A stretch of DNA of 64,000 nt from Zootoca vivipara (lineage: Eukaryota): NCBI RefSeq assembly GCF_963506605.1, contig NC_083279.1, positions 62,744,001 through 62,808,000 on the forward strand, written 5' to 3'. Below, in pieces: positions 8,560-49,014 of this stretch. The position numbers and the translations under genes are program-made. The notes below the pieces were generated by a model, which worked only from the letters and a program-made list of their open reading frames with translations, searched no databases and was not told the DNA's origin. The number at the start of each line of letters is the position of its first letter. Position 1 is the first letter of the stretch.

Positions 8560-10368
8560 ATGGGCTGCAGCAAGCGTTTGAGGGAGAAGGAAGAGCCTTT
8601 GCCCCTCCCTAAGCCAAAGTTAAAGAGAACAGACCTGCAAAGGGGCAAAGGAGGGAGTGGCCAGGCAAATTCTCAGGCTGAAGTAGAAACCTACAACCGC
8701 TTTCTCCCTCTGGAAGACCTTGAAACATCCCATACCCTGAAGGCACAGTGCTCTTTCTCTCAATCAAGAGTCCAAATGAGTACACCAAAAATCAAGCAGA
8801 CCCTTTTGGCCGAGGAAGCAATGCCAGACCCAGCGGAATGCCTCAGAAGTGAGCAGTTGCATTTGATTATCAGGACTCTTCATTGTATTTTTTAAAAAAT
8901 GGATGAAATATCCTTACAAGTATCTAACCTCATGCAGAAAGTTGGGAACCCTGAACCCAATCCATTACAAAGTCTACCCTATGAAAGAAAGCCTCCAGTT
9001 GACCAACCCCCCAAAGTTGAAAACAGGAGGAAGCATAAATATTGTTCAAATAACCAATTAAATAAACAAGTGTTAGTCCTGCATCCAAAGAAAATCTGCC
9101 TTTCAATTTGGAATGGAACAAGAAAATGGCTAAATTTAGAAGGGGCAAAGGATTGTTTAAGCAAAATTTTAAAGATCAAGCACCAACAAATTGACCTACA
9201 TGCGGTGCTTCCTCTCTTACAGCGAGATGGCCTCCTTAAAGTGATACTAGCCTTTCATTCCTCAGAGATTCCTTTTGAAATAGTGCGTCGGAAAAAGACT
9301 TTAGCTACAATTAACATCATCCCTACGAGGGTGTTTGAGGACAACACGATTAAACCTCTATTATGCAGAGTTGCCGGAAATACTCCTCCAAGAGCAGAAT
9401 GCCCTATCATATCAAGAAATGAGATTGACACCCAATCTTCCCAGTCAAATCTACCCCCTCTCCGAACATCTGAGGGGCCTGATCCTGATAATCTGCAAAC
9501 ATCCCTGGATGAAAATGCACTTATCATCTCCTTTGGTGACCTCCCGCTGAAAGAGCAAGCAGAAACAATACAGAGACTTGATATGCTCAAATCACAATTT
9601 CTGCAAGTACATAATAAAATTAAGAACCAAAATAATCTGGTTGCAACGTGTCTGTTGGAATCAGATGACCTCCTTCAATTTAGCCCAATACCTAAATCTA
9701 TGGTTGCTCGGCAAGCTCCAGTGATGCAGGCGATGCCTGAAATGAACACTGTCCTGCGAGAGGCTTCTCCACCACCCTTACAAATAAATCTTGACCCACT
9801 TTCTCTGGAGATCCCAGTGATGGAGGATGTCCCTACCCACCGACATGATCCAAATTATCCTTCGACGCATTCTTCTATGCCAGATCTTGAACCTTCTTCT
9901 ACATCAGATAAAATAACATCTAACCTACAAATGAACATTCAAAGGAGCTCTCTTTCAATATCTGGCCCACCAAGGGGAACTCGGTCACCCCAACAAACAC
10001 GGGATGATCCTACTACTATATTACAAGACTTTAGGGAGGATTTGATTGAAGATCCGATGGGCCATATAAATAAAATTATCCAACCTCCAAAGGAAATTCC
10101 AGTTAGTGGTACTACCTCTGCTGACCCTTTCTTCACTCCCCTGAGTAATGCCCCTTTACATCTATCAACTTTTTCTGAAAAGCTGATTATTCCAGGCCAA
10201 GGAGTTACCTCTAGTGGAACGAGCGTACCAACCTCGCAGCTAAATCATCCCAACAAATCTATTCTGCTAGGATGTTCTGCTCGGTCGCTACCCTCCCAAA
10301 GAAAAATTACAGATTATTTGGGGGCTGAAATTCCCCTCAACTCAGAGCCCCTTCCCCACCTGAATTGA
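8560..10368 (+). pseudogene. LINE ORF1 (~600 codons) with one in-frame TAA at 8893-8895
   Basis: ATG at 8560 and the 489-aa ORF from 8899 share a frame, separated by one stop; lies directly upstream of ORF2. Confidence 0.7.
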
Positions 10369-10398
10369 CTATCAAATAACCAACCTAAATACCCCCCT

Positions 10399-13300
10399 AT
10401 GCTATTTTTATGTTGGAACATCGCAGGATGGAGAGGGAAGAAATTCGATCCTGACTTCTTGAAATTTATAAACTCATTTCAGATAATCCTCCTCCAAGAA
10501 ACCTGGGAAGAGGAGGCGATTGAGATAAATGGTTACGATCTTATTTCACTTCCAGCATGCCCCTCTCCCAAAGGTGGACGTTCTAGAGGGGGCCTGACGA
10601 TAGCCATCTCCCTCAAACTACAGGCAAAACTCACGCTTGTAAAATCATTTCCTCCCTACGCTATCACAGGCTTGATTTCAGGAGGAAAATTTGAGTTACT
10701 GATTACAAATGTTTACTTCCCCCCTGGGGGCCAACTGTCAGATCTCCATCTTAAATGGGAAACCCTCGAGGATCATTTATCTTCCTGTTACACCAAGTAC
10801 CCGAACGTCCCCTCATTATTGGGTGGTGACTTTAATGCTCGTACAGGTGCAAATTGGGAGGCTCTAACCAAGGACAAGTGGTGGGTTCCCTCTGGCCACC
10901 AAAACCTGGACCTATTTCCACTTGCACAGAGACTATCGAAAGATGATAGAGTGAACAAAGCGGGTGTTCTTCTGTATCAACTAATAATCCGTCTAAACCT
11001 AATTATTTTAAATGGTAATTGTCCCCCTGATATTCCTGGCGAATTCACCCATTTGAGTACAATCTCAAACAGTGTTCTCGATTACTTAATAGTCTCTAGG
11101 GATTTATTCTCAAATTTAAAATAGAAAATGTTCAGCTAAGCGACCACCTCCCCTTGGTTGCCAAACTCTCCTTGGATTGGCAGCCGGTTGAGACTATGCA
11201 TCCCACACATTTGGGAATAAATGCTGTCGCCCAAGTGAGAGGAATAAAATGGTCCGTAGTCCAGGCCCAAAAATATATGGAATTCTTCCAAAAAGAAATA
11301 GTTAAAATTGATATCGTTCCCACGTTAGACTCATCTGAATATAACAATACTTTGAATTTATTTTCCTCATTCATGGAAGATTTTACGTCCTTTTTTACAG
11401 TACCAGCACATCGGGTAAATCGGATTCATTTTAAGGCTGGTGCTCCTTGGTTTAATCTACAATGTAAGCAGGCTAGATCTTACCTTTGTGCCATTTATAA
11501 TGATTACAAGTCATCTGGTGCTTTAGTATTGCCTCCGAATTATCAGCAAGCAAAAACTGCATATAAGCAGGTACAGAAAATTGCCAAATATGAGTGGCAA
11601 AAAAATCGATGGCAGGCGCTAATTGCTGCCTCCCGATCTCAAAGTTCACGGGAATTCTGGCATCTGGTTAATAGAAGATCAAAGAAGTACCCTTTGACAG
11701 TTATCCCTGCCCCGGTTTGGGAATTATTTCTAAAGAAATATTTTTCGTTGACAGAACCTTCTACTCATTCTTCTGATGATTTAATCAAGCACCTACCCAT
11801 CTGGCCAAATACTGAACCGGATGAAATTTTAGACTTAATCTCCAAACTAAAAACTGGTAAAGCCCCCGGGCCCGATCTGGTCCCAGCGGAGGCCATAAAA
11901 CTTCACCCTGCCTGGTGGGCAAAAATTCTTGCTGTTATTTTCGATGCTATAAATGCCACTGGTCTCGTACCAAAAACGTGGAAGGATGCCATCATAGTCC
12001 CAATCTATAAAAAAGGTTCCCCAGACGATCCGGGGAACTACAGAAATATCAGTCTTTTGTCAATTATTGGGAAAATATATGCACGTTTTCTTTTAACCAG
12101 ACTTGTTCAATGGTCCGATGAAAACCAGCTGATTGGCCCTGAACAAGCTGGATTTAGACCAAATCATTCAACTACGGACCATGCAATAGTTCTGTATCAT
12201 TTAGCTCGGAAATATTCATTCCCAACGCGAGGCCAGCTTTGTGCGGCCTTCATAGATCTAAAGGCCGCGTTTGATAGTATACCTAGAAGGTTATTATGGG
12301 AAAAACTGGCACGCTGGGGCATAGATGGAAGGCTACTGTGGCTGATGATTCAACTCCATGAAGGGTCGGCTGCCAGGGTGAGGATCACTCCTGCTGGTGA
12401 CCTTACAAATCCTGTATCTATCAATAGAGGAGTCAGACAGGGGTGTATTTTAGCCCCTTTCCTGTTTAATTTATTTATCAGTGACATGAGGGCACCCTTA
12501 GCCGAATCCCAACTAGTCATCCACGCCCCCCGCCTGGCAAATTATAGATGTCCATTGCTGTTATACGCGGATGATGCCGTGATTCTCTCTTTCTCGAGAG
12601 TCGGACTTAGGAGGGCCCTTAAAATTTTTGCTTCATATTGTAAATCAAATTTCCTTACTATAAATCAAGCCAAATCAAAGGTTTTAATTTTTTCAAGAAG
12701 TCGGAAAACCTATAAGTGGGAACTGGAGGGGAAACCCATTGAACAGGTTCACAAATTTCAATATCTGGGTGTCTACTTCCAGTACAACATGGGCTGGAAG
12801 GCACATATCGCATATACCCTAAATAAGGCCAAAGCTCTTTCGTTCGCACTGTTGCGCTTTTTCTTTTCTGACGGAGCTCTTCATGTCCCATCAGCCTTAA
12901 AGGTATATAATGCTAAAGTGATCGCGACAATGGCCTATGCTGCCCCGTTATGGGGGGCCTCTGTAAACCTGATGTCCTTGGAGATAGTCCAAAATCAATT
13001 TCTGAGACACCTATTAAAACTGCCCCAGTGTGTGAGCAATTCAGCCATTCGCTTAGAATTAAAAATCCCTTCTCTAGAAAACGCCCTATGGAGGCGTATT
13101 TTTTGTTATTGGTTGTCCTTGCGACACAGACTTTCAAAACTCTATCTTATCCAATGTCTCTGGCGAGACAAATTCGCTAGCCCATGGGCAGAGAAGATAC
13201 ATACAAAAATCGTGTCCTATGGACTGTCTCCATCGGACCTATTGAAACTAGATCTCGCCTCGGCCAAAAGAACACTTACGCAAAAACTAGATGAGTTTGA

Positions 13301-13742
13301 TCTCCAACAAAATGTCATAATGGGAAGTGGTACATGCTCACCGCTGAATCTTGGTATACGGCTTACACCGCAGATTCCATCTTATTTGTCATCTTTATCT
13401 GTTGCGGCCCACAGATTTGCTTTTACTAAAGCAAGATTTAACGTTTTTCCATCCAACGTTATGGGCAACAGGTTTACTAAAGGACAAATTTCAGCATTAT
13501 GTGCATGTGATAACAAAACTATAGAATCTCTCCATCATATATTATTCTGTTGTCCCTTGCACACGGACTCCCGGACCAGATTTCTACTTCCCTTAATAAC
13601 AGAAAGTTTGACTGAGAACTTGGAGTCTCAGTTAACATATCTGCTACAAGACAGCGACCCTAGCAGAACACTGCTAGTAGCAAGATATTTGGTTACAGTT
13701 CTCTCATACAAAAGGAAAAATGGTTTACTTCATGATTACTGA
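10399..13742 (+). pseudogene. LINE ORF2 (APE + RT), one frameshift near 11112
   Basis: WNIAG, LQETW, GGDFNAR, LDYLIV in the first frame; SDHLPL, KAPGPD, FIDLKAAFDSI, GVRQGCILAPFLF, LLYADD, YLGV in the shifted frame. Confidence 0.92.
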
Positions 13743-14246
13743 AAATCTGTTCTATTACCCGATTTATAGCGGAAACTTGTCGAAACAAACGTACTGTTCC
13801 ATCTATTTTATCCAAGGAATTATTGCAAATTATATCTGTTTATATGTATTGAATTTTTAAGTCCTTTTTAAACTTTATTTACTCTTGCTTTATTTTATCC
13901 TGTCTTGCCCAGTGTTTTTTGTACATTGTGTTGCATAAGATTATATTGTGGGCCTTTGGCCGTAATAAAGATTTCATTTCATTTCATCAGTCCAATTGAA
14001 ATCATTATGGAAGAGCTCCAGCATACAAGCGATTATTGTGGAGGAACTCTATATGATTCCATTTGGCCATGTGGGGAGCTGCTCTACATGTTACTCTACT
14101 GTTTTGTGGAATGGCCACCACACAAAAACTGTTGCATGTAGCTTTTGGAAGGTCGCCGTTTCTGCATCCCTGAACTACACAAACACATTTAGTCCCACAC
14201 AGCTTTGCTCTTTAATAACAGACAACAATGACATAACTGTACCTAC

Positions 14247-14366
14247 CAGGATTGGGGGTACTGCCAACAAGGGCATCTGTGGTTTCACAGTGGTCTCCAT
14301 TAGGAGGACTCTTTGGTTCTTCACTGGAAATGGCAGACAGGGTTATCCCCTCATCCTTTTCATCTT
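14247..14366 (-). CDS. CD2-like gene A exon 5 (acidic cytoplasmic segment)
   Basis: ctttccaacag acceptor, GTAGGT donor, 120 nt, phase 1-1: EDEKDEGITLSAISSEEPKSPPNGDHCETTDALVGSTPNP. Confidence 0.7.
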
Positions 14367-15839
14367 CTGTTGGAAAGCATAATGAGAGACTGAAAGGGGG
14401 CAAATCAATTAATCAATTAATATGGGTGAGGTAGAGTTTCGGCTTTGTGGGTATTCCTTCACCAATGCTAATTGCTGTCTACTAAACTGTACCCGACCTC
14501 TCCATAAAACACCCAAATCACCCCCCAAAAAATTCCATGTACAATTGCATAGTTATTGTCTTCAAAGGTTGCCATGCTTCATAGAGCAAAATAGCAGGTG
14601 CCCTATTTTACATCAGAGGTGGCTAACCTGTGGCCCTCTACTGGGTGACATCTCATCCAAGAGAACATTGGCCAGGCAGGCCGAGGCTTTGGGGAGCTGA
14701 AGTTCAGCAACATCTGGAGGGTCACAGGAACCCCGCTTTCACCTGTGGGTTTGTTTAGGATTGAGGAATTGTTCACATGTAGCTAAACTGTTGATTATTT
14801 TTATGAGGATGACCCAGTAAAGGGCACTAAGAGAATAAGAATTATAGGCAAAGAGGAGAAGAAAACTACCAAAATGCATACAGTGAATAGTGGGTATAAG
14901 CAGTTTATTTCCAACTTGTATTAACTCTAGTTTAAGAAGGGCAAGGTCTCCAGGTGGTCTCCTGATGCCCCGTTGGAATAAGATCAGTAGGTCTGGGTTT
15001 TCCCCCATGTGGATTCTCCTAAACTTCAAGAGCAAATTGTGGAACAGGTGCCTCTTGTTCTGGTGATGCCAGAATTGAGTTCTTTCCAGAGGCCTAATCA
15101 TGCAAGGAAACCTAAAAAAAAGTGACACTTTGATGCCAACATTGCCATCATCGTGATTTGTGGTGCCTGTAGGCAAAACTTATCATGACGAAGCCTCTGT
15201 ATCCCTTCTGTTCCCATGGCATATTATGAGACCATTTCTAGTTGCAACAACTTATGCTAAGAGGAGTGTAAGAAGTTAGGGTGACGGATTTTGAAGAAAT
15301 ATCAGGTAGGCTTGATAAGAAATTTGGAAGATAGATCCCAGGTGCAGGGTCCCTTTCAACAGGTCTATGATTCTATGTGCCGAAGGAGCTGCATACCTAA
15401 AACATAGGTTAGGGATCATATGAATAAAATCATCTAAATGATCCTTGGTCCCTAAAACAAGAATGATGTAACCTTATGAGAAATATACCTTTGCAGAAAT
15501 GCAGTCAAGTGTAAAACCTGAGAGGCAGGCTGGGATGTGGGCAAAGGAGCCATGGAAAGCAAATATGAGCTTTATTCTGGCTGGTTGCAAAATCTGCCTA
15601 ACTTCAGAATTGTCACTTTTGTCACAGAGTGTAAACAACTGCAGTTATAGGAGGAGCTTAGATTCATCTATAATAACCTATTTTTTAAAAAAGAATGTAA
15701 CTGTGGTTACAGGCCTATGCATTGCTTACATGGGGAGTAAATGCGGCTGGACTTAGTAGATTTCACTTCTACGTAAACATGCAATAGGATTGCGCTTCAA
15801 AATGCAATGCAAAAAAGAAGAGGGAAAACTGCTACTCAC

Positions 15840-15977
15840 CCGCAGGCACTGGGGTGAAATGATGCTTGCTCTTCATGCAGCAGCATGTGATCAGTGAGGC
15901 AATAATGGCCAGAAGGAGAGCACCCCCTCCACACGCTACCATAATATACAGGAAGTGCGGGTGCTGCAGCAGATCTC
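15840..15977 (-). CDS. CD2-like gene A exon 4 (transmembrane)
   Basis: 138 nt, phase 1-1, AG/GTGAGT: RDLLQHPHFLYIMVACGGGALLLAIIASLITCCCMKSKHHFTPVPA; CGGG motif as in the CD2 TM. Confidence 0.88.
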
Positions 15978-17000
15978 CTGATTGAAAGAAACAAGGTTGT
16001 TCTTAAGCAGTAAAGAAACAGGAGCAACCTAAAGACAGGACTCAGGGTCACCACGATGTTAAAGGTGTCTTTGCCTATAATATGCAAGGTGTGTGGTTTT
16101 TTAATGCAAATAATGTTGGTGGGGAGAAGACCACTGTTAGTTATCAGAATCCTACCAGGCATGGAGAAGTTATGTAAGGATGCTTCTAGACTGCTACTAT
16201 GGGGGGGGGGGGCAAATTCAGGTTGCAGTCACACCCATATCATACATTTATAGCACATCTAAAGCATATGACTTCCCCACAAAGAATCCTGTGAATAGTA
16301 GTTTGTTAAGGGTGCTTTAAATCACTGGTCTTCGGCTGATGGGTTGGGACCCACTAGGTAATGAGCTACCCTTTGATCCTTCACACCTCATTTTACTTGA
16401 AATAAAATTTACTTACAAAAGAACATGATTCACTCTGCCTCCCACTTCACTTAGATCAAACTTAGGGGAAAAAAACCCACTTAAGGCTGGAAACATTCCA
16501 TTGATACATAATACAGTAATCCACTTTATAGCCTAGTATGCTTTGATTCCTTTTTATATTTTAGTTCCTAGGAATTGAAGCGGCTTTCAGTCACTAATAT
16601 CTACATTTATTACTATTAAAAAATATTCTTCTCCCCGCCACCACTGCTTTTGGAAACCAAAAGGTTCCTGGGCTCATTCTGAATTATGGAGTGCCAACAG
16701 GATTTTCCAGACCTGGTCCACTCAGTGTGGATTGCCTGCTGTGCCCCATCTATCTAGTTGCAACAGTACCGGCCCTTCCATTAGGCAACACAATTTGAGT
16801 ATCAACAAAGGGCAACAACTTATTAGTTATTTAATTTGTTGTCATTGTATTTTTACAAAGGACCGGGGTTCTGGGGTTTTCTGTCTCAGGTGACAGTATA
16901 ACTTGGATGGCCTTGGGGATTATGTACCTTGCCTTGGTAGGAATTCATGGCACCATTTTCCTGGTCAGCTGCAGACAGCAAAATGTGTTGTGCTGACCCA

Positions 17001-17205
17001 GATATCCTCTATGCTCCATGGCTGAGGGGGGGGGGGTTGAGCTTTGGGTCTTTTGTTCTGGACCTTCCTTTTTTTGAATTTATGGGTATGTTTTTTTACA
17101 TTTGTTATGTAAAAAACCATACCCATAAATTCAAAAAAAGGAAGGTCCAGAACAAAAGACCCAAAGCTCAACCCCCCCCCCCAGCCATGGAGCATAGAGG
17201 ATATC
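17001..17205. repeat. Near-perfect ~205-bp palindrome (fold-back element)
   Basis: ~100-bp arms, few mismatches, 5-nt loop (acat-ttgtt-atgt). Confidence 0.95.
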
Positions 17206-17947
17206 ATCATGAGATGCATAGAAACTTATTCAGACAGACATGTAGTGCCCATTTTAAACCTTCACCACATCAGGAGGCCACTGTTTGCTGATTCTTGCGG
17301 CTGCTGCTACACCTCTCAAATCTGTAAAGGTTGGAGAGTGCAGAAATAGTTCCCTGTGACTGAGGGGATTGAACTGCAAGGTTACTGCACCATAAATATC
17401 AAAGCCACGCACGACTGCTTGCAGTTAGCAGTCTGTGAGCAACCCATTGACTGCAATCCATTCAAAACATTCAGGGGGCAATAGGTATCCGATAAATTGC
17501 ATTCTTTGTTTGCTTGTTTTTATTTCAACTGCCTGGTCCAGGACACAGACATTAAAAAGCAAAATATATTGCCAAAATGATGAATGATTTACCCTAACTA
17601 TGAATGTCAGGTAAAGGAGATTTTATTGTGAGCTACTAATAATTCTGGTTATTTTGCAATGAATATCTAGGCAAGAATCACAAGATGGGGCCAAAATGGA
17701 AGCTGAGCCTTGGAGCATTCAGCTAATTATTCTGAGGACTGCTGTGTCAGATGTGGTGCTGGTAATAGAAAGATTATTGCATCAGTTTCAGATGTCTCTC
17801 AGTGATTTTTTAATGCTGACAGGCCTATCCTATGCTGTCTAAAATGTTCCTTCAGCAGCCAGTCATTTTAATGATTGCTTTGTATTGCTTTTATTTTTAT
17901 TTTACTTTTATTTTGTCATACACTGCCCTGATGCTTGTGAGATGGCA

Positions 17948-17999
<52 letters not shown>
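17948..17999. repeat. (TG)n microsatellite
   Basis: Directly visible. Confidence 0.95.
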
Positions 18000-18001
<2 letters not shown>

Positions 18002-18654
18002 TTCTGGGGTACATATTCAAATATGTTGTAAGATGTATTCAGACATGTTTTTCCCACTTTAACATTTTCATTAAGTTTTCCAATATACAGAGGAACAAGA
18101 AATAAATAAAAAAAAGTTTCCCCCCCCAAAAAAAACATCATGGCCTGCAAGAAAAAAATGAGAATGCTGTATGGAACAAAGTAAATAACAAACCATCATT
18201 TTCCAGAGGGCCTTTCACCAAAAGTCTTTAAAATAAGCATGGGGAAAAAAGGAAGAAATCCCCTCCCTTGTGTGTCTGTTAACTATTATCTATTAAGGTC
18301 CAGAAATTATATTTAATATCTGAAAGCTTTACAAAATCCCAATATTTGCGTATGTGGATGGGACCAAATGTCCATGTTCTTTCAGATTAGTGTATAATAT
18401 AAAGTCATTCCACATGGCAAAGTAATGGTCACTAGTGAATTGGCCTCCCATTAGCCCCAGTCAACATGGCCAAAAGTCAGGGGTGATGGAAGGAACTGTC
18501 CAACAATGTCTGGAGAGCACCCAGTAGGCAGGGAGCTGCTTCATGAATGAAGGGAAACGATTTTGTGTTGGTGAGTCAGAGAGACAGATCTGCTGATATA
18601 TAAATTCAAATAACACGTTGAAAACCCATAAGAAGAAGGTAAAATATAACTTAC

Positions 18655-18909
18655 GATCATTACCACCATTACATGACAGCTCAATGGAGGAGCTGCTACG
18701 AGAGTCTCTTCTATGGCAAGCCAGCTTTCCCTGTACCCCTTTCCCCAAAATAATGTTCTTGCCACCATCTTTCACACAAGCATCAAAATCATTTATTCTT
18801 CTCCCATTCCGAGTCCAGTAAACTCCATAATTGAATTGGCCATCTGCTTCACAGGACAAATTTGCTCTTCCATCAGGTAGACAATTGATATAAACAGCTG
18901 GAGGCTTCT
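18655..18909 (-). CDS. CD2-like gene A exon 3 (IgC2 domain)
   Basis: 255 nt, phase 1-1: EKPPAVYINC..ANLSCEA...VYWTRNG...GKLACH...IELSC; CD2/SLAM D2 four-Cys pattern plus one extra Cys. Confidence 0.9.
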
Positions 18910-20130
18910 CTAGGCAGTGGAACGAGAACAACAAAACAGAGAGAAAAACGTTACCATGACAGGACAGTGGGAACCATCATCTGAACCTTTCGTTGTTGTT
19001 TTTTTCATTTAATCCCCTATTACCTCCTTCAACTATATATAACATTCAATGGATCCTAATGGATTTTTCCTGCTGTTTGCCTCCTGAGAAATTGAAAACC
19101 CCTCATGGTCCTTGTAAACAGACCTGCTCCACTACTAAAATTTACCATCTTCTAAATTGGGATTCCAGTAATCTTCAAAAGCAAATCACATGGATTGCAG
19201 GTTCCTATTAACTTTGTTTTTAGGGGTACCAGCCCAAGGGCAGGCAATTAAGGTGCAATCCTGTATTGAAAATACAGTACAGGGGACAAGCACACTTATG
19301 TTACTTCAATACGTTGCCATGCCCATGTCAATCAAACTGCTTCACCAAACCATCAACTTAATGTTGACCATCAACTTCATCATGTCAGGAGCCACTAATG
19401 GTTGTGTGAAGTTGGTTCATATTAGCTCCAGTCCAAAGAACGTGAGCCCTCTTGTGACTTGTTGAAATCAAGCATACAGGGGAAAATATGGGGTGGTGAT
19501 TGTTGTTGCTGTTTTCCAGATCAGAAGAAATATATGGAAAATCTGAGTCACAATGTAGAAGCTGGGCAAAGGAATATTTCTGGCCAAAACATTCCCATAC
19601 AAAATGTGATTCTCGCAATTCAAGCATGCATTTGAAGTAATGAAGGAATTGGTGTTTCCTTCTTCCTCTTTGGCAAGTTGTATCTTTGCTATTTAAATCC
19701 CACTTACGTGTGTACCCAAAACACCATTGCCTTTGCTACATCAGTTGCAGTTCTGCCTGTTTGCCTTTGGGTGGCACTTAAGAGTAATGTACTTAAACAC
19801 TTGAATCATACATGCATACTTTTCTTATGGCACTTTCTTATGTTTTAACAAACTGATCCGAGAGCGAACCGTGTGCATTTATTACACTAACCAGAATAAA
19901 TTAGCTCCCTCCTTTAACCTGTTGTATACCAACCCGCATCTTTGAACGAAAACCAACACTCCCATTGATCAAACCCTGTTTAAAAGGGATATGGTAGTCC
20001 CAAGTCTACGATTGCAGCATGAATGTTGGAAAGAGCCTTTGCATCACCGTAGCTCCTTGTCTGTAAAGGGTTTACTTGTCTTCTGCAGCTGTTAAAAGCC
20101 AAGGATCCTCTGTCCATACAAGATGGAGAA

Positions 20131-20438
20131 CATACTCTCCAACATTCCTCAGATGAAAATAGGGACATTTCTCATTTACCCTCCTCAACATCCCATTTTT
20201 TGACACGCCCACCCTGGCAGAGATTTCCTATCAGAAGAAGGGCAACAGGGAGCCCATGGAGGGGCAATGGGATGCTCCCTCACTGGTGCTCGGGACAAGC
20301 ACCAGCTCCTCCTCCTCAAGCTTGAAGGTGGCAGCACTGACAGGGGAAATATGGACATTCTGGGATCAAATCAGAAGTCACGGTGGCTTTCTGAACTCCA
20401 TGACTATCCCTGGAAAATCTAGACACTTGGAGGGTATG
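20131..20438. mobile_element. Old hAT-type MITE
   Basis: TIRs catactctccaa...ttggagggtatg. Confidence 0.6.
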
Positions 20439-20494
20439 TGAGAACGTCAGAGTACTTGGGTTAAAGCAGACTGGGGGCCTTATTATTTGTGGCC

Positions 20495-20541
<47 letters not shown>

Positions 20542-20545
20542 TTAT
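20495..20545. repeat. (ATT)n microsatellite
   Basis: Directly visible. Confidence 0.95.
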
Positions 20546-21542
20546 TCACACAGTGAAATGAATTATCTGAAGCACTTGCAGCAAGCACAAATTAAAATTT
20601 GGCATGCCGCAAACCAGTTCACTTAAGGGAGATTTCTAATGCTGTGTCAAATCAGCAGGCCTGTTTGCTACATGCAGCGTCTGTCAGGTGGTGGTAGTTA
20701 TGAATGCCAGATGAGTGTGAGAGGTGATGCCCATTGGCCTCTAGAATAGTCTCCAACTGCCCCGAAAATGCCGGGACAGTCACGGAAACCCTTAAGCCAT
20801 CACAGCTTCTCACTTTGTCATGCCGAGTCCTGAATGAGCTACACTAACTGGAAATGGCTTCACGATGGGGGAAGCAAGAGGAAGAGAGAATTGCCAACTG
20901 AGTCACTTTCTCCTTCCCCCCCCCTCCTCTTCTGCTGCCATGCCCTTTGCTGCTGCTCCTGGGAGTCATAGAAAATGGAGTGGAGTAATAGAGAAAAGTC
21001 TTGTGCCAGGTCCAGGGGAGGGAGCCAGGTAGGTCGGCTGGCTAGCTGGTGGAGGAGCAGTAGCAGGAAGAGGAGGAAGGAGTGAGGCAATGGAGACAAC
21101 AACGGCAATGTCAAAAAAAAAGTCCCCCCCCCTCCCCAACAGTGATATTGAATAGAATACCTCATTTTATCTGAGGCATGTTGGAGGGTACGCTTTGGTC
21201 ATTAGGCTGTGACTCTCCAAGTATTGCTGGACTACAGCTGCCACCATACATGTTGCCTGGGACATGTTTATGGCCCTCCAACATAAGCTGGAGGGCCACA
21301 GGTTCCCCGCCTGTGTTTTAGGCTAAATGTCACTGAGTTTAAGCTTAAATTAAAGCCCACTTATTTGTAGATCACAAACTAAGGCTGCATGCTTCCTTGG
21401 AAAAAAAACTCCCATTGAACACTGGCATCTATTTTCTGAGTGAGTATGCTTAGGATCACACAGTCCGTTTGAAGCAGAACCAGCAATTAATCAACCTCTT
21501 AGATTTTGCCATTGTCGATTCCCAAATAAGGATGCTGACCGC

Positions 21543-22016
21543 AAGGAATGGATAGAATTTTGTCAATTTCAGTTTCTCTCAGCTACTCATTTTTCCCATC
21601 TTAAATTTAGTTCTCCATATTTTCACATCAGTTTGCCAACACTTTTCGAAAGGACCTCATGAAAATCCATTGGCATGTTGATACAAATTTCTCTTTTGGG
21701 TAAGAAATTTCTGCAAGCAATTTCCCCTGATATGCCAAGCAGTTTTGCAAAGCAATTTCCCTGAACACAAAGTAGTTTTGTATGTTGATTTCACTAAGAT
21801 ATGAATATATTCTGGTATATGGACTTTTGTGCATACATTACCTGGCTGAGGAACTGCTTTGCAAAATGAAAAGAAGTGCAGATTTTGAAGGATGGCTGTG
21901 TTTTGGTTCATGCATTGTTTCAGAAAGTGCAGATTCGGTATAAAATGCAAACAGGTATTAGATGTAAATGAAATCAGTTCCCATGAAAACTGATCCCAAT
22001 TTATCCCCCATCCCTA
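21543..22016. mobile_element. Old hAT-type element abutting the gene A exon 2 splice donor
   Basis: Terminus catcccta (TAGGGATG) at 22009-22016; degenerate TSD ctgaccgc/cttaccac; related inverted copy at ~62040-62360. Confidence 0.55.
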
Positions 22017-22021
22017 CTTAC

Positions 22022-22297
22022 CACACACTTTGAGCAAGAAAATTTCGCTATCATTTCCAAAAGCAAACGTATATTTCCCCTCGTCGTTTTCTGATAAATT
22101 CGTCATCTCTACAACCCCGTTCCTCAAGCACAGCCTTTTGTCACAATCATTGCAACAGTTCACCGTAAAATTCTCCGGCTCAGAACAGTTCGTTTCTTTC
22201 ATTACTTGGATGTCACTTAGATTTTTAATTTTCAAAGGGAAAGAAACATTGCCACCAGTGTCACCAAAAAGCCGTTTGAGGTTCATACAAGTCACAC
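22022..22297 (-). CDS. CD2-like gene A exon 2 (IgV-like domain)
   Basis: 276 nt, phase 1-1: GVTCMNLKRLFGDTGGNVSFPL...NGVVEMTNLSENDEGKYTFAF...FLLKVC; GxxGxxV and NLxxxDxGxY V-set motifs, no B-F disulfide. Confidence 0.88.
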
Positions 22298-22916
22298 CTG
22301 CAACAGTAATAAAAGATTTAAGTTGATTTTTTAAAAAGCAGTTTATAAACACTATTAAATAAATAAATACATATTGAAAAACGTAAGTCTAATCAAAGAG
22401 GTAACACTGTGGTCACAAACAGAAAAAGATGAGGAACCTCTCAGTTGAAGAAAACATCTGAGAACTGTATTCTTCATCCCCCCCCCCCCCTTTAGCTCAT
22501 AGCTTCATTTTATCTGAGTGAAAAGTCAGGGTGGGGGGGACGGAATCAACTTAATATTAGTTACTAAGATTGAAAGCCTTAATTCGTGAAACAGTGCAAT
22601 TCATACATTTATATGAGAACTGATCATTTCGAAGGGTACTTGCTGAGCAATTGCTGTAAATAAATGACCTAAATGTAGCTTTTAATTCAGGTAACATTTA
22701 ATATATTCTTGCAAGAAAGTATGCGGTTTGTCAGTTAAATAGTGTTGTTTTTCATGTAGCTTAAACTCTCACCCATAGTGTGTATGTATTTGAATTCATT
22801 ACTCATTGGCCTCAGAAAACATTCAATGATTTTATATGGTCCACAGATTTATACTGATTACACTATAGAATGTGTTTAGAAATGGAAATAATTACCACCT
22901 ACTTAGTTGTTTTTAA

Positions 22917-22917
22917 A

Positions 22918-22977
<60 letters not shown>

Positions 22978-22978
22978 A
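22917..22978. repeat. (AAAG)n microsatellite
   Basis: Directly visible. Confidence 0.95.
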
Positions 22979-23521
22979 TCTAAGCAGTGTTTGCAAAACT
23001 GGATGAATTCAGACTAGTTACTTTCCCTCGCTCCAATTCCCTGTCTCCAAAATTATGCACAGATATTGAAAATGACTTGGAGTATTGTTTTCAAAAGAAT
23101 TTTAAACTGGAAACCTATGTACATGGGACTTGGGCCCCTGAATGATTTTGGGGTGTTTTCATCTAGTATTCTAAATTATTTGCTCAAGGTCACACCGAGA
23201 GACAAGAAAAAAACCCTGGAATCATTGTGTTGACCACTACCCCTCACGGAAAGCCTCACAACCTCTTATTTCTCTTGCATTTACAAATGCAGTACATCAG
23301 GAGACACGGTTGCAATTAGCTTATGAGAAAATCTGTCTTACTTTGGAGTGACTGGCCATTTTCATGCTTTGGCGGTTATGACACCAGTATTTCCCTGAGT
23401 CCCGTAGACTAGCCTTCCTTTAAAGGAGAGGGGTGGCGGGGGTGAAATCTGAACGAAGAGGATAATTTCTGCTCACCTAGGCAAACCAATGCCAATTTGA
23501 TAAAAGAAAATTCCCACTTAC

Positions 23522-23582
23522 CATCAGTAATGGTCAGAATCACCAGCACGCATGGCAAGGGAAGAGAAAAGCGGAAATCCAT
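23522..23582 (-). CDS. CD2-like gene A exon 1 (signal peptide)
   Basis: ATG at 23582, 61 nt, phase 1, GTAAGT donor: MDFRFSLPLPCVLVILTITD(G). Confidence 0.85.
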
Positions 23583-29987: not shown

Positions 29988-30152
29988 CTTGAAAACTAGA
30001 GATATTTAAAAGCATGGGGTTTCCTGTGTTGGGAGCTGCTGCTGCTGCTATTGCTGCTACTGCAGTCTCTTTTTCATTCCCAGTTGAAAACCATTGACCT
30101 TCTTCTCTGGTTTCTATAGCCTGTGGTTTTTGTAACTCTGGACTTGCAGTTG
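29988..30152 (-). CDS. Gene B exon 6 (cytoplasmic)
   Basis: 165 nt, phase 1-1, ttgctttcttgctcag acceptor, GTAAGT donor, open frame TASPELQKPQAIETREEG...NISSFQ. Confidence 0.7.
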
Positions 30153-30443
30153 CTGAGCAAGAAAGCAAAAAGCATGGAAAGTAAATGCTGGTTCAGCACA
30201 ACATTAACATATAAGCATGTTGTAACACAGGAACAAACAAAAATTACTAAGTACAGTACTCTATAGGGGGAATAGGTTTTAGCATCATTACACAAGGTTT
30301 CTGTATACTATGGGGCTCACTCCCAGGTAAGTAGCCTTTTCTGAAGACCATAAATAGAGGGTCCAAAATCTGCCTTGGGTCCTTACTGGAAAGAGAGAAA
30401 ACAGATTAGAAACAACAAGAAGATGCTTGGGAAATGTAACTTG

Positions 30444-30861
30444 CGTAGGTGCCAAGTTCTGGATCGAAAAATTTGGGATCAGCAGTGCCACGGCACCTGA
30501 AGTCGCTTCTACGCACTTCTGGACATGCATAGAAGCGACTTCCGATGCCGCTGTGCCCATTTCCAAAATGTCCGCAGCGCCAGAAGTCGCTTCTACGCAC
30601 TTCCGGACATGCGTAGAAGTGATTTCTGGCGCTTCGGACATTTTGGAAATGGGCACAGCGGCATCGGAAGTCACTTCTACTCATGTCCAGAAGTGCGTAG
30701 AAGCGACTTCCGGTGCTGGCGCGGCACCAGAAGAACATGGCCCCCGGCAGGAGCTCTGTAATCCAGGGGAATACAGGGTATTTTGCCATTCGGGACACCT
30801 GTGGGAAACGGTAAGAAAATACGGGGGTTTCCCGGAGAAAACGGGGTACTTGGCAGCTATG
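30444..30861. mobile_element. hAT-type MITE with internal direct and inverted GAAGTCGCTTCTACGCAC repeats
   Basis: Termini cgtaggtgccaagt...acttggcagctatg; motif repeated 5-6 times in alternating orientation. Confidence 0.75.
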
Positions 30862-30926
30862 AACTTGTGGGACCTCCTGATAAATACAAAACCATAGTCG
30901 CATTTTTTGTGAGCATGTAGCTCAAT

Positions 30927-31049
30927 GTGACCCAGCACACATGTATGATGGGGGGAAAAGACAATGGAATTCTGAAATAATCTGAGACCCAATTCTATTT
31001 AACACACTATCTCATTTGTCAGAAGATGCAGTTCATTTAGTAGCTAGGC
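30927..31049 (+). repeat. Inverted ~123-bp copy of 28322-28443 (gene B last exon and start of 3'UTR)
   Basis: Manual alignment gives about 90% identity to the reverse complement of 28322-28443. Confidence 0.9.
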
Positions 31050-32542
31050 CAGGGACATCTTTCCCGTTTGGGCAAGCTGGTTGAAGGCTGACTGGGAGAG
31101 ATGCCTTGCACTCCAGTGCTGCATTGCTGTGGGGAACAAGTCCCTCTTGAAATGACCATGCTGTAAGAGTTGGACTCCCTCCATGCAGACGGAAGGTGTA
31201 AATATGCAAATAAAACAGATTTCTTAAAGCAGTCTCCACTACATCTTCGATTCTCCAGGGGAGCTCAAACCATCAGTGAATGCCTGAAACCCCCTGGAAT
31301 CTTGCTACTGGTCGGCAGTACTTTGTTGGAGTGGAGTTTAATTTATAAGGAAGGAAAACAGGCAGAACCATCACTTCTTTGAGGTGAGTAGTCTCCAAAA
31401 AAAAAACCAAAAATCCTTGCTTCCAGAAGCTGATCTGCAGTGCTTCAGAATGTCCTACTTACTAAGTGGCACTGTTCACATGAGTATTCTGCTCGCTGAA
31501 CTGTTAAATGCACTTGGTGGCAGCAGAACACAGTGTATGAATCACCCCATAATGAATAACAAACTAAACTTGGCAATGATGCACCGACACGACCTAAATG
31601 CAAGCACAGTAAAGAAGTTCTGAGAGCTTTCTGGTTTTTTATTTGTCTTTTAACTGGCATGTAAAACCATAAGAACTGCGGAAGAGTCTAGCTAGCTCCA
31701 ATGAAACAGATTTATGTTATTGTCTATGTATTCTCTTCCATTTATATCCCATCTTTCTTCCACCCTGAATCCAAATATACATGTGGTTGCAGGAAGTCTC
31801 CAGTCCAGGAACTGAATCTCATATATTAATTTAGGCCTGCTTCACACATCATGCTAACACAAACTATGTGTGAGTGTGGAGGCTCCCAGAGAGGAGATCA
31901 CAGCAGCTTTGCTTCTCATCAGTTGCTTGGCTGCTGCACCAAACTGGGAGAGCTAAACCATGAGCCTAGGTTTGTACAACACATCAAGCCATACCATGGA
32001 GTTGGAAAAGATTTTTCCCTCAGGCACAACTGGCCCAAGACATTTCCCTCCCCCAGCCCCAGCAGCTGTGTATTTGTGTATTTGGAAGGTCAAAACTGTT
32101 GGATCTCACACATGGCTTTGTTGGTGGCCTTGAGCAGAACCTTAGGTTGCAGGGCAGTGCCAGACTGTGGGTACTGGAGGACCCATGGCCTTCTTCTGTA
32201 ACATTTGGCTTGGCTCATTTCTCTCTGTGGTCTAGAGCTAAGGATTCCCAACAGAATTTGCTGCTTTCAGCTTCTGTGGTCTGAGGTATCTCCAAAACAA
32301 TTTGTTCCGGACCCGCACACCTTGATTTGCAATAGAAACATATCACACCAAAACCACCTTTGTTTGTTGTCCTCACACAATTACCAGGGAGAAAGGTCAC
32401 ACTCTTCCGACTTCCTCCTGTCCTGCCCTCAACTGCAACATACAGAGGTCTCTAGCAGTTGGGACTCTACAATCACAGTTTTAGATCCTATGGAAGCCTA
32501 AACACATAGAGATTAGTGTACACTGGTTTCTCAGCTGTAATA

Positions 32543-33575
32543 CCGTGTTTCTCACATTATAAAACATCCCTACAAAATAAGGCATGGCAGGATTTTTCTG
32601 AGGTGGCAAAATATAAGGCATACCTCGAAAATAAGCCATACCGCAGGTCTGTGGCAAAGAAGAGGAAAAGGAAGGGGGCTGCTCGGAACCGGATGCTGCT
32701 GCTGCGTTAACCCCCAGGACCCGGCTGCAGCCTTTGCGCGCGGAGCGCGAAGCCCCGGGTCCCGGCAGGACCCTCAGCGCACAGTGCGCGAAGCCCCGGG
32801 ACCCGGCTACAGCCTTTGTGCGCGCCGCGCGAAGCCCCGGGACCCGGCTGCAGCCTTTGCGCGCGGCGCGCGAAGCCCCGGGACCCGGCTGCAGCCTTTG
32901 CGCGCGGCGCGCGAAGCCCCGGGACCCGGCTGCAGCCTTTGCGCGCGGCGCGCGAAGCCCCGACACCCGGCTGCAGCCTTTGCGCGCGGCGCGCGAAGCC
33001 CCGACACCCGGATGCAGCCTTTCCACGCGCCGCGCGAAGCCCCGACACCCGGATGCAGCCTTTCCACGCGCCGCGCGAAGCCCCCGCTTGCAGACAGTCA
33101 CCGGGCTCTAACTAAGGTATGGACTTTTTACCTCAGGCGGGGAAATGGGGTGGGGGTCGGTTGGCGGCGAGGGAGGGGCGGAAGGAATCTGAGGGGTTGC
33201 ATTCTGACACGCATCTTGCCCCCGCCGCACAAAGCGGGTTGAGGATGTGCGCCCGGCTGAGGTGCAGGCATGGGGGGGGGGAGAGAGAGCAGCAAACGTT
33301 TCCTCAGGCGATCCGAAATAGCAGGGTGACTCCCTTGCCTGCCTGCCTGACTCAATCAACTCAGCAAAACCACCTCCGCTCCCCAGCTCACTGCCCGGTG
33401 TGGGAGCGAGAGGACACACACTCGCAACAGGACACACAAAACACGATAGCGGGGGGAGCTACTGCACTACCCATGTACTGTAATAAAAATAAGACATCCC
33501 TTGAAAATAAGCCATGGTGGGTTTTTTTGAGGAAAAAATAAATATAAGACATGTCTTATAATATGAGAAACACGG
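32543..33575. mobile_element. Tc1/mariner (Tc2-like CCGT termini) non-autonomous DNA transposon
   Basis: TIRs CCGTGTTTCTCAYATTATAARACAT, TA TSD (32541-2 and 33576-7), subterminal AAAATAAG repeats. Confidence 0.9.
32712..33085. repeat. GC-rich 40-41-bp minisatellite (~9 copies) inside the transposon
   Basis: Unit cgcgaagccccgggacccggctgcagcctttgcgcgcggcg; period 41 (32721, 32844, 32885). Confidence 0.95.
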
Positions 33576-33582
33576 TACTCAC

Positions 33583-33672
33583 GTTGGTCTTGCTTTCTCC
33601 TATAAACTACTGCATAGTCAGGCACATTCTTTCTCCAACTTGCATGGCGTTGTCTTCTTGTTTTCCAGAGAA
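33583..33672 (-). CDS. Gene B exon 5 (membrane-proximal cytoplasmic, Tyr motif)
   Basis: 90 nt, phase 1-1, AG/GTGAGT: VLWKTRRQRHASWRKNVPDYAVVYRRKQDQ. Confidence 0.72.
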
Positions 33673-35451
33673 CTTAAACCATATAAAATAAAAAGTGTGG
33701 AAATGGTTTTCATTGAGAACTGAAAGCACATATTACTGGTGCCGTAGTCACTCCTAATAGCCCATCACCTCCTACTATTATTGCAGGGGTGCAGACACAA
33801 TCCCATTTCTTTCTTTGCCTTTTCTTTTTCTAGAGCAAGTGAAAGGTGGGTCACATTCCTCCTGTCCATTACAGCCTTTATGAAAATTGGCACAGATTTT
33901 AAGGGAAGCTTAGAATAAAGTCTTTCCCCAGCAGTAACTGGCTTTCCGGCATATGCATACAGAAAAACCCTCAAGCTATTTTCTTTTTAACCAACTAGCT
34001 TTGCACCACTTAAAACATGGCCTGAAATATCCGTTGGCAACTTCCTCTTATCAGGGACCCTATGAAAGCTAAGAGGACAGGAGGCACATGCGAGAAAAGG
34101 TGTGGGCGTCAATTAATTGCTCACAACCCATCACGTGCTCATAGCCTTTCAATGCTGGCAGGAGGAAAGGCGATGGATCCAATTCTTTGTATTTTCCCTC
34201 TTCAGAGGTTGAGTCTTGGTGGCTAGAGATGGGGGAGTTCAGTTCACATTTAAAGGCAAATCTATTAAATTCACAGAAGCAAAATTCACAGAACCTTCCA
34301 TCCAAAAGAAAAAGGTAATAAGACAGGGCAGATGGGCTTGATGATAGCATGTATCATGCTGTGTTCCTACGAACTGATACAAGAATTCCCAAAGGAATCT
34401 TCACCTCTTAAAATATATCTACAATAACTTGGTTTTTTAAAAAATAAGTGCATGCATATACTTGCTATCAGCTCAGTTTGTATGCCTACCTAGTACACTG
34501 TGATTCATGTTAGTAAGCAAACAATTCAACAATGCCAGCAATCCCAAAGGGGATCTTCAGTTGAAAATGTCTTACTTTAGACTCAAGGATGTGGCTCTCC
34601 CTGGCATGCGCCAGAGGGTGGCAAAGTCTGCATCCTGGTTTCAGCTAGTCACAGTGCAGGGAACTGGAAGTGACACACTGCCCTGACACACTCACTGCAG
34701 CCTGATAAAAGACGGCAGGTCATGCGGGAGAGTGTGATAGACGCACACACAAAGGGGGGGGGGCAAGGAGAAAGGATTATTGGCAAGTGCACAGCAACGA
34801 AGGACAGCTAAGAAGCAAGGAGGGGGAGAACCTCTGTCCCAGCAAAACTGCTAGAAAATAATATTAATTGTGAGTGGGAGATGGGGAAAACGGAGAGGAG
34901 AAATCTGCAGCTACAGAGACAAAGCAGAGGCAGATTGAGAGAGTTGTGAGAGAACAGCTGTGAAAGAAAAAGAGACAGCTGAGGTTACAAACTTCAGTAA
35001 GAAAAGCTGAGTGAAGTTGTATGGGCTGCAGTGATCGGAAACACCCATATGAACTATTCCAGGTCTTTGAGGCCTCCCGTGTATTGGGGGGGGCGCACAG
35101 GGGGCTCTTACATGGAACAGAAATCCTGACACACAATGGGTTGTTATGTCCGAACCAAGAACTGCATTCGCTTCAACAAACTACAGTTTAAACTGAGCCA
35201 AGATCAGAAACCGCTGTTTCAATAAACCATAGTTTGGCCCTACCCATAGTTTGGTCCACTTCAGATGTAACCAATTATGGTCAGCTTAACTCAGGAAGCA
35301 GATGAAGATCTCTTCCTCTGATGCATGTTGGAGGAGGAGAGAGGACAGGAGAATGCTTGAGTCCACGTCTTGAGTAGGCTCACTCCTATTATGCTAAAGT
35401 ACAGTTTAGCATTATGTCCAAACAGGTGTTATATGCTGACCTCCATCTTGT

Positions 35452-35487
<36 letters not shown>

Positions 35488-35697
35488 AGAGAGGGGGGGG
35501 AGAGAGAGAGTGATCCCAATGTGCTTGGTGTGCTTGTAAAAAAAAAAGTGATCAGGCTGCACATGGATTTTCATCACCATGAGATGAAAAAGGTTTTATT
35601 GAGAAAGTAAAAGAAAGAGTTGCATTAGACAACCATCTGTACCTTTTGAGTGAGTTTCCCCCATTATGGTAAGCAAGGTAAGTCAAGGAAAGATTAC

Positions 35698-35829
35698 CTG
35701 GCTTCCTCTTCCATTTTCCAACATGATATATACATGAGCCCAATAGAACAAGAAACGCTGCAACAAGAGCTCCTGCTAAGATGAAGAAGAATATACGGGG
35801 CCAACATATTGTCTTCTGTGGATTAGGTT
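35698..35829 (-). CDS. Gene B exon 4 (transmembrane)
   Basis: 132 nt, phase 1-1: QPNPQKTICWPRIFFFILAGALVAAFLVLLGSCIYHVGKWKRKP; hydrophobic span plus basic stop-transfer. Confidence 0.85.
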
Positions 35830-37743: not shown

Positions 37744-38049
37744 GTATAAGTTCCAGTTGAATTGTGTGACTGTACTGATACACACCATCCTTGGTAAACA
37801 CTTCTGCTGTGTACTGTCCGATATCCTGCACTTGAGTGGGGCACAAGCTCAAGCTGCCATTGTTAAGTATAAGACATCTCTTGGTGTCTATACAAGTTGT
37901 AATATTCTGGCCATCCACCTTTCCTATTGTGATATTGCCCTTCTTCCAAATCACATCATGAAGGTGGATTGATTGTTTTGTGGTCTTCATTTCAAGGAGC
38001 ATACAATCACCAAGTGTTCCTTTGGTGAGACTAACCTGCAGTTTGGATC
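37744..38049 (-). CDS. Gene B exon 3 (second IgV domain, CD2-family type)
   Basis: 306 nt, phase 1-1: GTLGDCMLL..VIWKKG..NNGSLSLCPTQVQDIGQYTAEVFTKDG..IQLELI. Confidence 0.9.
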
Positions 38050-38457: not shown

Positions 38458-38757
38458 GTGTAAGCAGCAGTTCCTTTCTGTTACTGTATTGAAAGCGTCC
38501 ATCCTCACTATATGCTGCCACTGTATAATGCCCAATATCGTCCAACTGAGTAGGACACAAGCTCAAGGTGCCATTGTTATAGATAAAACATCTTTTGCTA
38601 TGGATTGTACAGTTCTGACCATTGATCATCATCCCAATCAAGGCATTGCCTTTCTTCCAAATCACGTTGTGAATGTGGATTGCTGGGTTCCTGTTCTCCA
38701 GATCAAGGAGAATACAATCACCAAGTGTTCCATTGATGAGGCTATCCACTTTGGATC
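38458..38757 (-). CDS. Gene B exon 2 (first IgV domain, CD2-family type)
   Basis: 300 nt, phase 1-1: GTLGDCILL..VIWKKG..NNGTLSLCPTQLDDIGHYTVAAYSEDG; resembles the CD2 D1 pattern GALGQDINL/IKWEK/NGTLKI/DQDIYKVSIYDTKG. Confidence 0.9.
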
Positions 38758-40971: not shown

Positions 40972-41041
40972 CTTGAAGAACAAGTAGGCCTATATAAACC
41001 ATTGATGGGACAGGAAAAATAGAAAATGCTTGAGAGTTCAT
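40972..41041 (-). CDS. Gene B exon 1 (signal peptide)
   Basis: ATG at 41041, 70 nt, phase 1, GTAAGT donor: MNSQAFSIFPVPSMVYIGLLVLQ(G). Confidence 0.78.
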
Positions 41042-48978: not shown

Positions 48979-49014
48979 TCACACCACGAGGGACATCCTT
49001 GTTGGGAACTCATT
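48979..49014 (-). CDS. ILDR2: ILDR2 terminal coding exon (NEFPTRMSLVV*)
   Basis: 36 nt, phase 0, strong acceptor; angulin-family C-terminal SLVV PDZ-binding motif. Confidence 0.95.
   Translation of the reverse strand, partial: NEFPTRMSLVV

What the first reader, a model, noticed from the sequence alone, without database searches (positions are those of the whole stretch)
14247..23582. CD2-like paralog with a Trp-less, Cys-rich V domain and no proline-rich tail
Seen: 61-nt leader, V, C2 and a TM with ACGGGALL, all CD2-like. The V domain has DIQVMK where CD2 has DIKWEK and a C-x9-CC-x2-C-x4-C cluster. C2 has a fifth Cys, the TM ends in CCC, and the tail is acidic without PPPPGHR or PPLPRPR motifs. 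Inference: not a canonical CD2 ortholog but a repurposed duplicate, possibly a palmitoylated, disulfide-linked ligand or decoy. With gene B it could form a linked receptor-ligand pair analogous to CD2-CD58.
Basis: partly seen in the sequence, partly recalled or inferred. Interest (0 to 1): 0.7.

Follow-up and report, generated by a model that had tools for sequence, protein, structure and literature searches.

The report
Lizard counterpart of chicken chB6 (Bu-1)
This lizard gene is the counterpart of chB6 (Bu-1), a known CD2-family surface marker of chicken B cells, not a newly repurposed CD2 copy; it likely works as a lipid-anchored, disulfide-linked signalling co-receptor on B cells, and it lacks the short tail motif that chicken chB6 needs to trigger cell death.

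Summary
The features are real, but the gene is the lizard orthologue of avian chB6/Bu-1. A zebra-finch protein listed in print as a chB6 orthologue hits only this gene's exons in the genome (4 of 4 matches), aligns full length (35%) and groups with it (95/97). Relatives occur across squamates, tuatara, birds, turtles, crocodile and amphibians, so the CCC site, acidic tail, fifth C2 cysteine and Trp-less V domain are family traits. The tail is better conserved than the ectodomain, which argues for a signalling receptor, not a ligand or decoy. The PxxP death motif of chicken is absent in 23 of 23 squamates (in print); CCC and two other tail motifs are kept. One open point: chicken CD2 lies within 20 kb of chB6, yet no proline-tailed CD2 was found in 864 kb here; neighbour B (V-V-TM, no C2) may be a remodelled CD2.

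The parts
23522..23582 (-). Gene A (chB6 orthologue) exon 1, 61-nt leader
   Evidence: ATG at 23582, GT donor; matches N-termini of relatives
22022..22297 (-). Exon 2, V-type Ig domain without the C-strand Trp, with a five-Cys cluster
   Evidence: weak V-set; strand pattern
18655..18909 (-). Exon 3, C2-type Ig domain with five Cys; Cys157 is shared with zebra-finch chB6
15840..15977 (-). Exon 4, transmembrane helix, CCC at residues 229-231 (likely palmitoylated), start of tail with F-x-PVP motif
14247..14366 (-). Exon 5, acidic tail part with conserved SPPNG motif; ends in a GT donor; site of the chicken PxxP reads TPNP
   Evidence: a sixth exon (61 residues in P0009) was not found in readable sequence
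8896..13990 (+). LINE retrotransposon downstream of exon 5, antisense to gene A (in intron 5 if exon 6 lies beyond it): 490-codon ORF1-like frame, endonuclease, reverse transcriptase in a second frame
   Evidence: ends approximate
40972..41041 (-). Neighbour gene B exon 1, 70-nt leader
38458..38757 (-). Gene B V domain 1; best PDB matches are CD2 structures
37744..38049 (-). Gene B V domain 2, an internal duplicate of V1 (57% identical)
35698..35829 (-). Gene B transmembrane exon; no C2 exon found between V2 and it
29988..30152 (-). Gene B predicted first tail exon (not proline-rich; ends in a donor, later exons unresolved)
   Evidence: prediction only

Best explanation
Gene A is the lizard orthologue of avian chB6 (Bu-1), an old CD2-family membrane protein, and it likely acts as a palmitoylated, disulfide-linked co-receptor in B-cell membrane rafts that tunes receptor and adhesion signalling through its conserved acidic tail. 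Shown here: six-exon V-C2-TM-tail design (five exons in the window, the sixth from a named record), orthology, conservation of CCC, F-x-PVP-x-E/D, SPPNG and terminal D-x-FPDP motifs, and loss of the chicken PxxP site. Inferred from chicken: B-cell expression, raft location next to the B-cell receptor, dimer formation (Cys157, the conserved fifth C2 cysteine, is my candidate for the interchain bond) and integrin activation on cross-linking. Because the PxxP motif is missing, the lizard protein would signal without the SH3-dependent death output described in chicken.
For: XP_012425496 (P0186) is named as a chB6 orthologue in PMC11882424 Fig. 4 legend and came up in my profile search as a member of a 64-member bird cluster. 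In the own genome it gives 4 matches of 7 candidates, all four in gene A exons. Full-length alignment 123/351 identical, E 1e-65. Tree of V-C2-TM: gene A, 10 other squamates, tuatara, crocodile and two birds form one clade, 95/97. Register matches: CCC and PxxP are 51 residues apart in chicken (228-230, 279-282) and finch (227, 278); lizard CCC is at 229. Tail composition is the same in lizard and finch (24% D/E, 12-13% P, no Tyr). Identity to five bird rows: V 26%, C2 33%, proximal tail 57%, tail end 53%. CD2-family fold: Foldseek rank 1 is the CD58 structure 1ccz, rank 4 CD2; profile matches human CD2 over both domains, E 5e-9. Chicken data: passages in PMC4031500 (dimer, raft, integrin), PMC11882424 (SH3 motif, caspase 8), PMC10826067 and PMC11617357 (B-cell expression).
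Against: Chicken chB6 itself and tetrapod CD2 were not available as stored sequences, so the link runs through the finch protein and the trees lack the proper outgroup; the clade that includes amphibians is weak (66/87). No expression, palmitoylation or dimer data for any lizard. The sixth exon was not found in this assembly's readable sequence, and a LINE lies just downstream of exon 5, so the full-length transcript is taken from a predicted record. The V domain is fast-evolving and partly degenerate in snakes, so ectodomain function may differ. One source names a relative 'T-cell surface antigen CD2' (P0005). The model is of moderate quality (mean pLDDT 59.6).
Confidence: 0.82

Rival explanations
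1. Gene A is the lizard's true CD2, with a replaced tail; database labels such as 'T-cell surface antigen CD2' are right.
For: It sits directly 5' of, and on the same strand as, the PTGFRN-like gene, the place of human CD2 (neighbour names and human order recalled; exons). No other V+C2 CD2-family gene in 864 kb. 61-nt leader and a GGG-containing TM. One relative is labelled CD2.
Against: Chicken has both chB6 and CD2 within 20 kb (PMC4031500 passage), and gene A matches the chB6 orthologue in all four exons scored, tail included. 0 of 23 squamate and 0 of 15 bird relatives carry CD2 tail motifs. Six exons against five for CD2 (PMC5990624 passage).
Confidence: 0.04
2. Gene A is a chB6 orthologue whose job has changed in squamates: it serves mainly as a ligand or adhesion partner, perhaps for neighbour B.
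For: PxxP site absent in 23 of 23 squamates and tuatara. V domain remodelled: Trp lost, up to six Cys. B is a linked CD2-family gene whose V1 resembles CD2. The ligand of chB6 is not named in the passages I read.
Against: The tail is the most conserved part among squamates (88% proximal, 77% end, against 48% for V), unlike a passive ligand. Birds, where chB6 signals, also lack the Trp (5 of 5 rows). Linkage alone is weak evidence of binding.
Confidence: 0.12
3. This assembly's allele is truncated: exon 5 reads through its donor to a stop 12 codons later because exon 6 is lost or cut off by the LINE.
For: Exon 6 not found in readable DNA; a read-through frame ends at 14212; a LINE begins about 250 bases after the donor.
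Against: The donor is intact, the five exons have no lesions, and the named record that is identical over all five exons has the full tail. Unreadable stretches in the window make absence unprovable.
Confidence: 0.08

Closest known systems
chB6 / Bu-1 alloantigen (chicken LOC396098, NP_990513; zebra finch XP_012425496)
   Same: Two Ig domains, TM ending in CCC, acidic tyrosine-free tail of about 110 residues, fifth C2 cysteine, Trp-less V domain, same motif register, reciprocal match.
   Different: PxxP SH3 site lost (TPNP); V domain has five clustered Cys against two in the songbird rows; 12 ectodomain Cys against 8 in chicken.
CD2 (human 1hnf, rat 1hng)
   Same: V+C2 fold, leader-V-C2-TM exon order, GGG in the TM.
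   Different: No proline-rich tail, two tail exons, CCC, C-strand Trp lost.
CD58 / CD48 ligands
   Same: Fold; 1ccz is the top Foldseek match.
   Different: Long conserved cytoplasmic tail; the gene next to the IGSF3-like locus here is a B7-type V+C gene, not gene A.
SLAM receptors
   Same: V+C2 design; chB6 is placed in the wider CD2/SLAM family.
   Different: No tyrosine in the tail, so no ITSM.

Membership tests
chB6/Bu-1 orthogroup | Reciprocal best match to a published chB6 orthologue | tested here: met
   (finch protein; chicken protein not stored)
chB6/Bu-1 orthogroup | Groups with chB6 in a tree | tested here: met
   clade 95/97; no tetrapod CD2 in the tree
chB6/Bu-1 orthogroup | Two Ig-like domains, CCC at the TM end, acidic tail | tested here: met
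chB6/Bu-1 orthogroup | PxxP SH3 site 51 residues after CCC (feature of birds, turtles, crocodilians; reported absent in lizards and snakes) | tested here: not met
   0 of 23 squamates, 15 of 15 birds, 4 of 4 scored turtles; agrees with PMC11882424. A clade-level loss, not a mark against orthology
chB6/Bu-1 orthogroup | CD2 gene within about 20 kb, B7/CD80-type gene nearby | tested here: inconclusive
   A CD2-family gene (B) lies 6-17 kb away but lacks C2 and a proline tail; B7-type gene about 530 kb away
chB6/Bu-1 orthogroup | B-cell expression, disulfide dimer, raft location | not testable with these tools
   chicken data only
CD2 (canonical) | Proline-rich tail with PPPPGHR and PLPRP motifs in one exon | tested here: not met
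CD2 (canonical) | V domain with C-strand Trp and no Cys cluster | tested here: not met
CD2/SLAM family (wide sense) | N-terminal V domain without the B-F disulfide plus C2 domain with two disulfides, type I membrane protein | tested here: met
   (C2 Cys conserved; D-x-G-x-Y followed by no Cys); disulfide pairing itself not measured
SLAM subfamily | Tyrosine switch motifs in the tail | tested here: not met
   no Tyr in the 114-residue tail
CD58-type ligand | Short or absent tail; position next to IGSF3 | tested here: not met
   (feature list recalled)

The most novel reading that the evidence does not exclude
Squamates have lost canonical proline-tailed CD2: the only CD2 descendant at the locus is gene B, rebuilt as a V-V-TM protein without C2 domain or proline-rich tail, while chB6 lost its death motif and kept other tail motifs (F-x-PVP-x-E/D, SPPNG, D-x-FPDP, the last echoing D-x-FP-x-P tails of caecilian, gar and paddlefish relatives) that would be the family's real ancestral signalling core. 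The lizard T- and B-cell co-receptor pair would then be rewired in the lineage already known to lack gamma-delta T cells.
Probability: 0.22. Interest if true: 0.7.

Novelty: new member of a known kind. Interest (0 to 1): 0.3.

Why it matters
It gives a name to an 'uncharacterized' gene present across reptiles, birds and amphibians and offers a candidate B-cell marker for lizards and snakes, where reagents are scarce. The squamate form is a natural deletion of the chB6 death motif, and it points to conserved tail motifs that chicken work has not tested. It also corrects one published wording: the CCC site is kept in 19 of 23 squamate records. The larger question, whether squamates still have a canonical CD2, is raised but not settled.

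Tried and rejected
Complex prediction of the A ectodomain with B V1: no answer (score 0.00, alignments not used, controls not run); no evidence either way. RNA: no RNA holder listed; laying X7-X10 on gene A and X7, X11, X13, X14 on gene B gave repeat-derived reads, next to no depth on the exons and no exon joints; tissues unknown, so uninformative. Hunt for canonical CD2 in the genome: Pfam C2-set gave 1 match, a VCAM1-like exon by recall, so the search is insensitive; a tail-motif DNA pattern gave 4 matches against 4 for the control, none CD2-like; Pfam 2B4, B V1 and a pipefish CD2-like protein gave titin-like, L1CAM-like or chance hits. These do not show absence. Pfam scan of 145 of 228 ORFs between the window and the PTGFRN-like gene found no Ig exon. 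PDB search could not name the PTGFRN-like exon. Pfam Orthoreo_P10 hits on the TM exon are below cut-off and reflect TM plus Cys. Mammalian orthologue: none among the named hits, but only 20 of the 150 listed hits (467 in all) were looked up, so absence from mammals rests on PMC11882424. Literature: 'chicken CD2'+CD58 0 papers; squamates+CD2+gene loss+T cell 0 papers; listings showed no paper on lizard chB6 beyond PMC11882424 or on squamate CD2 loss. Earlier scan notes: none on this place or sequence; those concern other loci and were not used.
Full report
Observation. The finding describes a minus-strand gene of five exons, 23582-23522, 22297-22022, 18909-18655, 15977-15840 and 14366-14247, all with proper splice ends and phase 1. 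The 283-residue product is identical to residues 44-326 of the named Zootoca vivipara record XP_034971381.1 (P0009). That record and its relatives continue for about 61 more residues after the donor at 14247. This last part is acidic and ends in a D-x-FPDP motif; it is not a CD2 tail. I did not find that exon in the readable window, in 200 kb downstream or in the genome. The window has unreadable stretches, so its place is open. A LINE starts about 250 bases after the donor, on the other strand.

Distribution. A search with the Podarcis relative gave 22 proteins among 1219 candidates: 21 named squamate records (geckos, skink, cordylid, lacertids, amphisbaenian, anguimorphs, iguanians, snakes) and one unnamed fragment. 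A profile search of 1.84 billion representatives gave 467 hits, 150 listed. I named 20 of them: they include tuatara, a 64-member songbird cluster, tortoises and other turtles, a crocodile, two caecilians and a newt, then more distant CD2-like genes of sturgeon, paddlefish, gar and teleosts. The gene is therefore old, not a lizard duplicate.

Identity. A paper listing led to chB6. Funk 2025 (PMC11882424; parts 1-3 of 4 of the text read, figures not seen) names XP_012425496 of zebra finch as a chB6 orthologue; that accession is P0186 in my bird cluster. P0186 searched against the own genome gives 4 matches of 7 candidates, the TM, C2, tail and V exons of gene A. It aligns with P0009 end to end, 123 of 351 identical, E 1e-65. 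In a tree of 31 V-C2-TM rows, gene A lies in a clade with ten other squamates, tuatara, crocodile and the two birds (95/97); adding turtles gives 89/87, adding amphibians only 66/87. No tetrapod CD2 and no chicken chB6 sequence was available for the tree. The register fits: chicken CCC 228-230 and PPMP 279-282, finch CCC 227 and PPKP 278, lizard CCC 229. The fold is of the CD2 family: in the AlphaFold model (mean pLDDT 59.6, most Ig-domain blocks 70-87) Foldseek ranks the CD58 structure 1ccz first and CD2 fourth, and the family profile matches human CD2 across both domains at E 5e-9, below several multi-Ig proteins that score by summed repeats.

The odd features are family traits. CCC: 19 of 23 squamate records (two read CSC, two models skip the TM exon), 15 of 15 birds, 3 of 5 turtles, 2 of 3 amphibians, CCY in tuatara and crocodile. 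The C-strand Trp is absent in 19 of 19 squamate rows, tuatara, 5 of 5 birds and crocodile, and present in 4 of 4 turtle and 2 of 2 caecilian rows; a side-necked turtle has both the Trp and a Cys cluster (P0035). V-domain Cys run from 0 (tortoises) through 1-2 (geckos, birds) to 5-6 (lacertids, skink, tuatara). The fifth C2 cysteine is shared with the finch. The tail is better conserved than the ectodomain: identity to gene A among 18 squamates is 48% in V, 60% in C2, 88% in the proximal tail and 77% at the tail end; among five birds 26, 33, 57 and 53%. F-x-PVP-x-E/D occurs in 21 of 23 squamates and 15 of 15 birds, D-x-FPDP in 18 of 23 and 15 of 15. The chicken PxxP site is absent in 23 of 23 squamates and tuatara, present in 4 of 4 scored turtles (one not scored) and 15 of 15 birds (a fixed window scored only 11 of 14 birds). 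[quoted passage not shown]

How it likely works. For chicken chB6, Li et al. 2014 (PMC4031500, passages) report a disulfide-linked dimer at the surface, a likely palmitoylation site, closeness to the B-cell receptor and integrin activation on cross-linking. Funk reports SH3-motif-dependent apoptosis, caspase 8 pull-down and no early phosphorylation change (the primary papers of 1996 and 2017 were not seen). Expression is on B cells and some macrophages and is lost in plasma cells (PMC11617357 and PMC10826067, passages). By orthology I infer a heavily glycosylated (seven sequons), raft-anchored dimeric co-receptor on lizard B cells, with Cys157 as a candidate interchain bond and signalling through the conserved tail motifs, but without the PxxP death output. 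None of these steps was tested in a lizard.

Neighbourhood. Going down the contig the order is an ILDR-family gene (Pfam LSR; ILDR2 by recall), B, A, then three multi-V genes of one family at 62.66, 62.58 and 62.36 Mb (PTGFRN, CD101 and IGSF3 by recall), then a B7-type V+C gene at 62.23 Mb, which fits the linked CD80 of chicken. A local CD2-family profile over 864 kb found only exons of A and B below E 0.01. Chicken CD2 lies within 20 kb of chB6; here the gene within 20 kb is B. B has a 70-nt leader, two V exons, no detectable C2 exon, a TM exon and a predicted tail exon that is not proline-rich; its 3' end is unresolved. Its V1 has CD2 structures among its best PDB matches (1cdc E 4e-4, 1hng E 1e-3; the top row 1t6w is a rat CD2 variant by recall), but V2 matches CEACAM1 better and CD2 only at E 0.5. 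In a V-domain tree the two B domains pair with each other (100/100) outside the chB6 rows; the deeper branches are open. So B may be a remodelled CD2 or a separate paralogue, and my genome-wide searches for CD2 were too insensitive to show absence.

Verdict. Gene A is a new member of a known kind, and lizard and snake relatives are already mentioned in print. What is added is the positional and reciprocal evidence, the amphibian relatives, the retained CCC, the unstudied tail motifs and the open question of where squamate CD2 is. Interest 0.3; the CD2-loss reading has probability about 0.22 and would merit 0.7. Supplements of the papers were not consulted; the alignments in the figures of PMC11882424 and PMC4031500, which I could not see, may already show some of the tail motifs.

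Noticed in passing
window 29988-41041 (-): Gene B: CD2-family gene with two duplicated V domains, no C2 exon and no proline-rich tail found; lies where chicken has CD2 relative to chB6; 3' end unresolved.
   Followed up: partly
G000:C4:62144001-63008000: No canonical proline-tailed CD2 and no CD58-like gene detected in 864 kb around the window, IGSF3-like locus included.
   Followed up: partly
window 8896-13990 (+): Near full-length LINE downstream of exon 5; the endonuclease (251 codons) and reverse-transcriptase (880 codons) parts are in different frames.
   Followed up: partly
window 48982-60481 (-): 3' half of an ILDR-family gene (Pfam LSR, E 2e-24); ILDR2 by recall, here next to the CD2-family pair rather than its mammalian neighbour.
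   Followed up: partly
window 44650-45273 (+): C2H2 zinc-finger remnant with stops and frame changes between gene B and the ILDR gene, likely a pseudogene.
   Followed up: no
G000:C4:62229200-62231290 (-), loci L081-L082: B7-type V and C exons just beyond the IGSF3-like gene; may be the gene called CD80 in chicken.
   Followed up: no
P0023, P0025, P0028 (snakes): Snake orthologues have a shortened, degenerate V domain while TM and tail stay conserved.
   Followed up: no
P0048, P0195, P0148, P0172: Caecilian, gar and paddlefish relatives carry acidic D/E-FP-x-P(P) tail motifs (three repeats in one caecilian) that resemble the amniote terminal D-x-FPDP and, by recall, EVH1-domain ligands.
   Followed up: partly
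P0003, P0026, P0029, P0035, P0047: Several database models skip either the TM exon or the C2 exon; all exons are phase 1, so such isoforms stay in frame. Could be real splice forms or model errors.
   Followed up: no
window 32640-33110 and 30500-30730: GC-rich tandem repeats inside the gene B region that give long spurious open frames.
   Followed up: no
window 1969-3140 (-): Fragment of an RTE/BovB-type LINE with a reverse-transcriptase match (type recalled).
   Followed up: no
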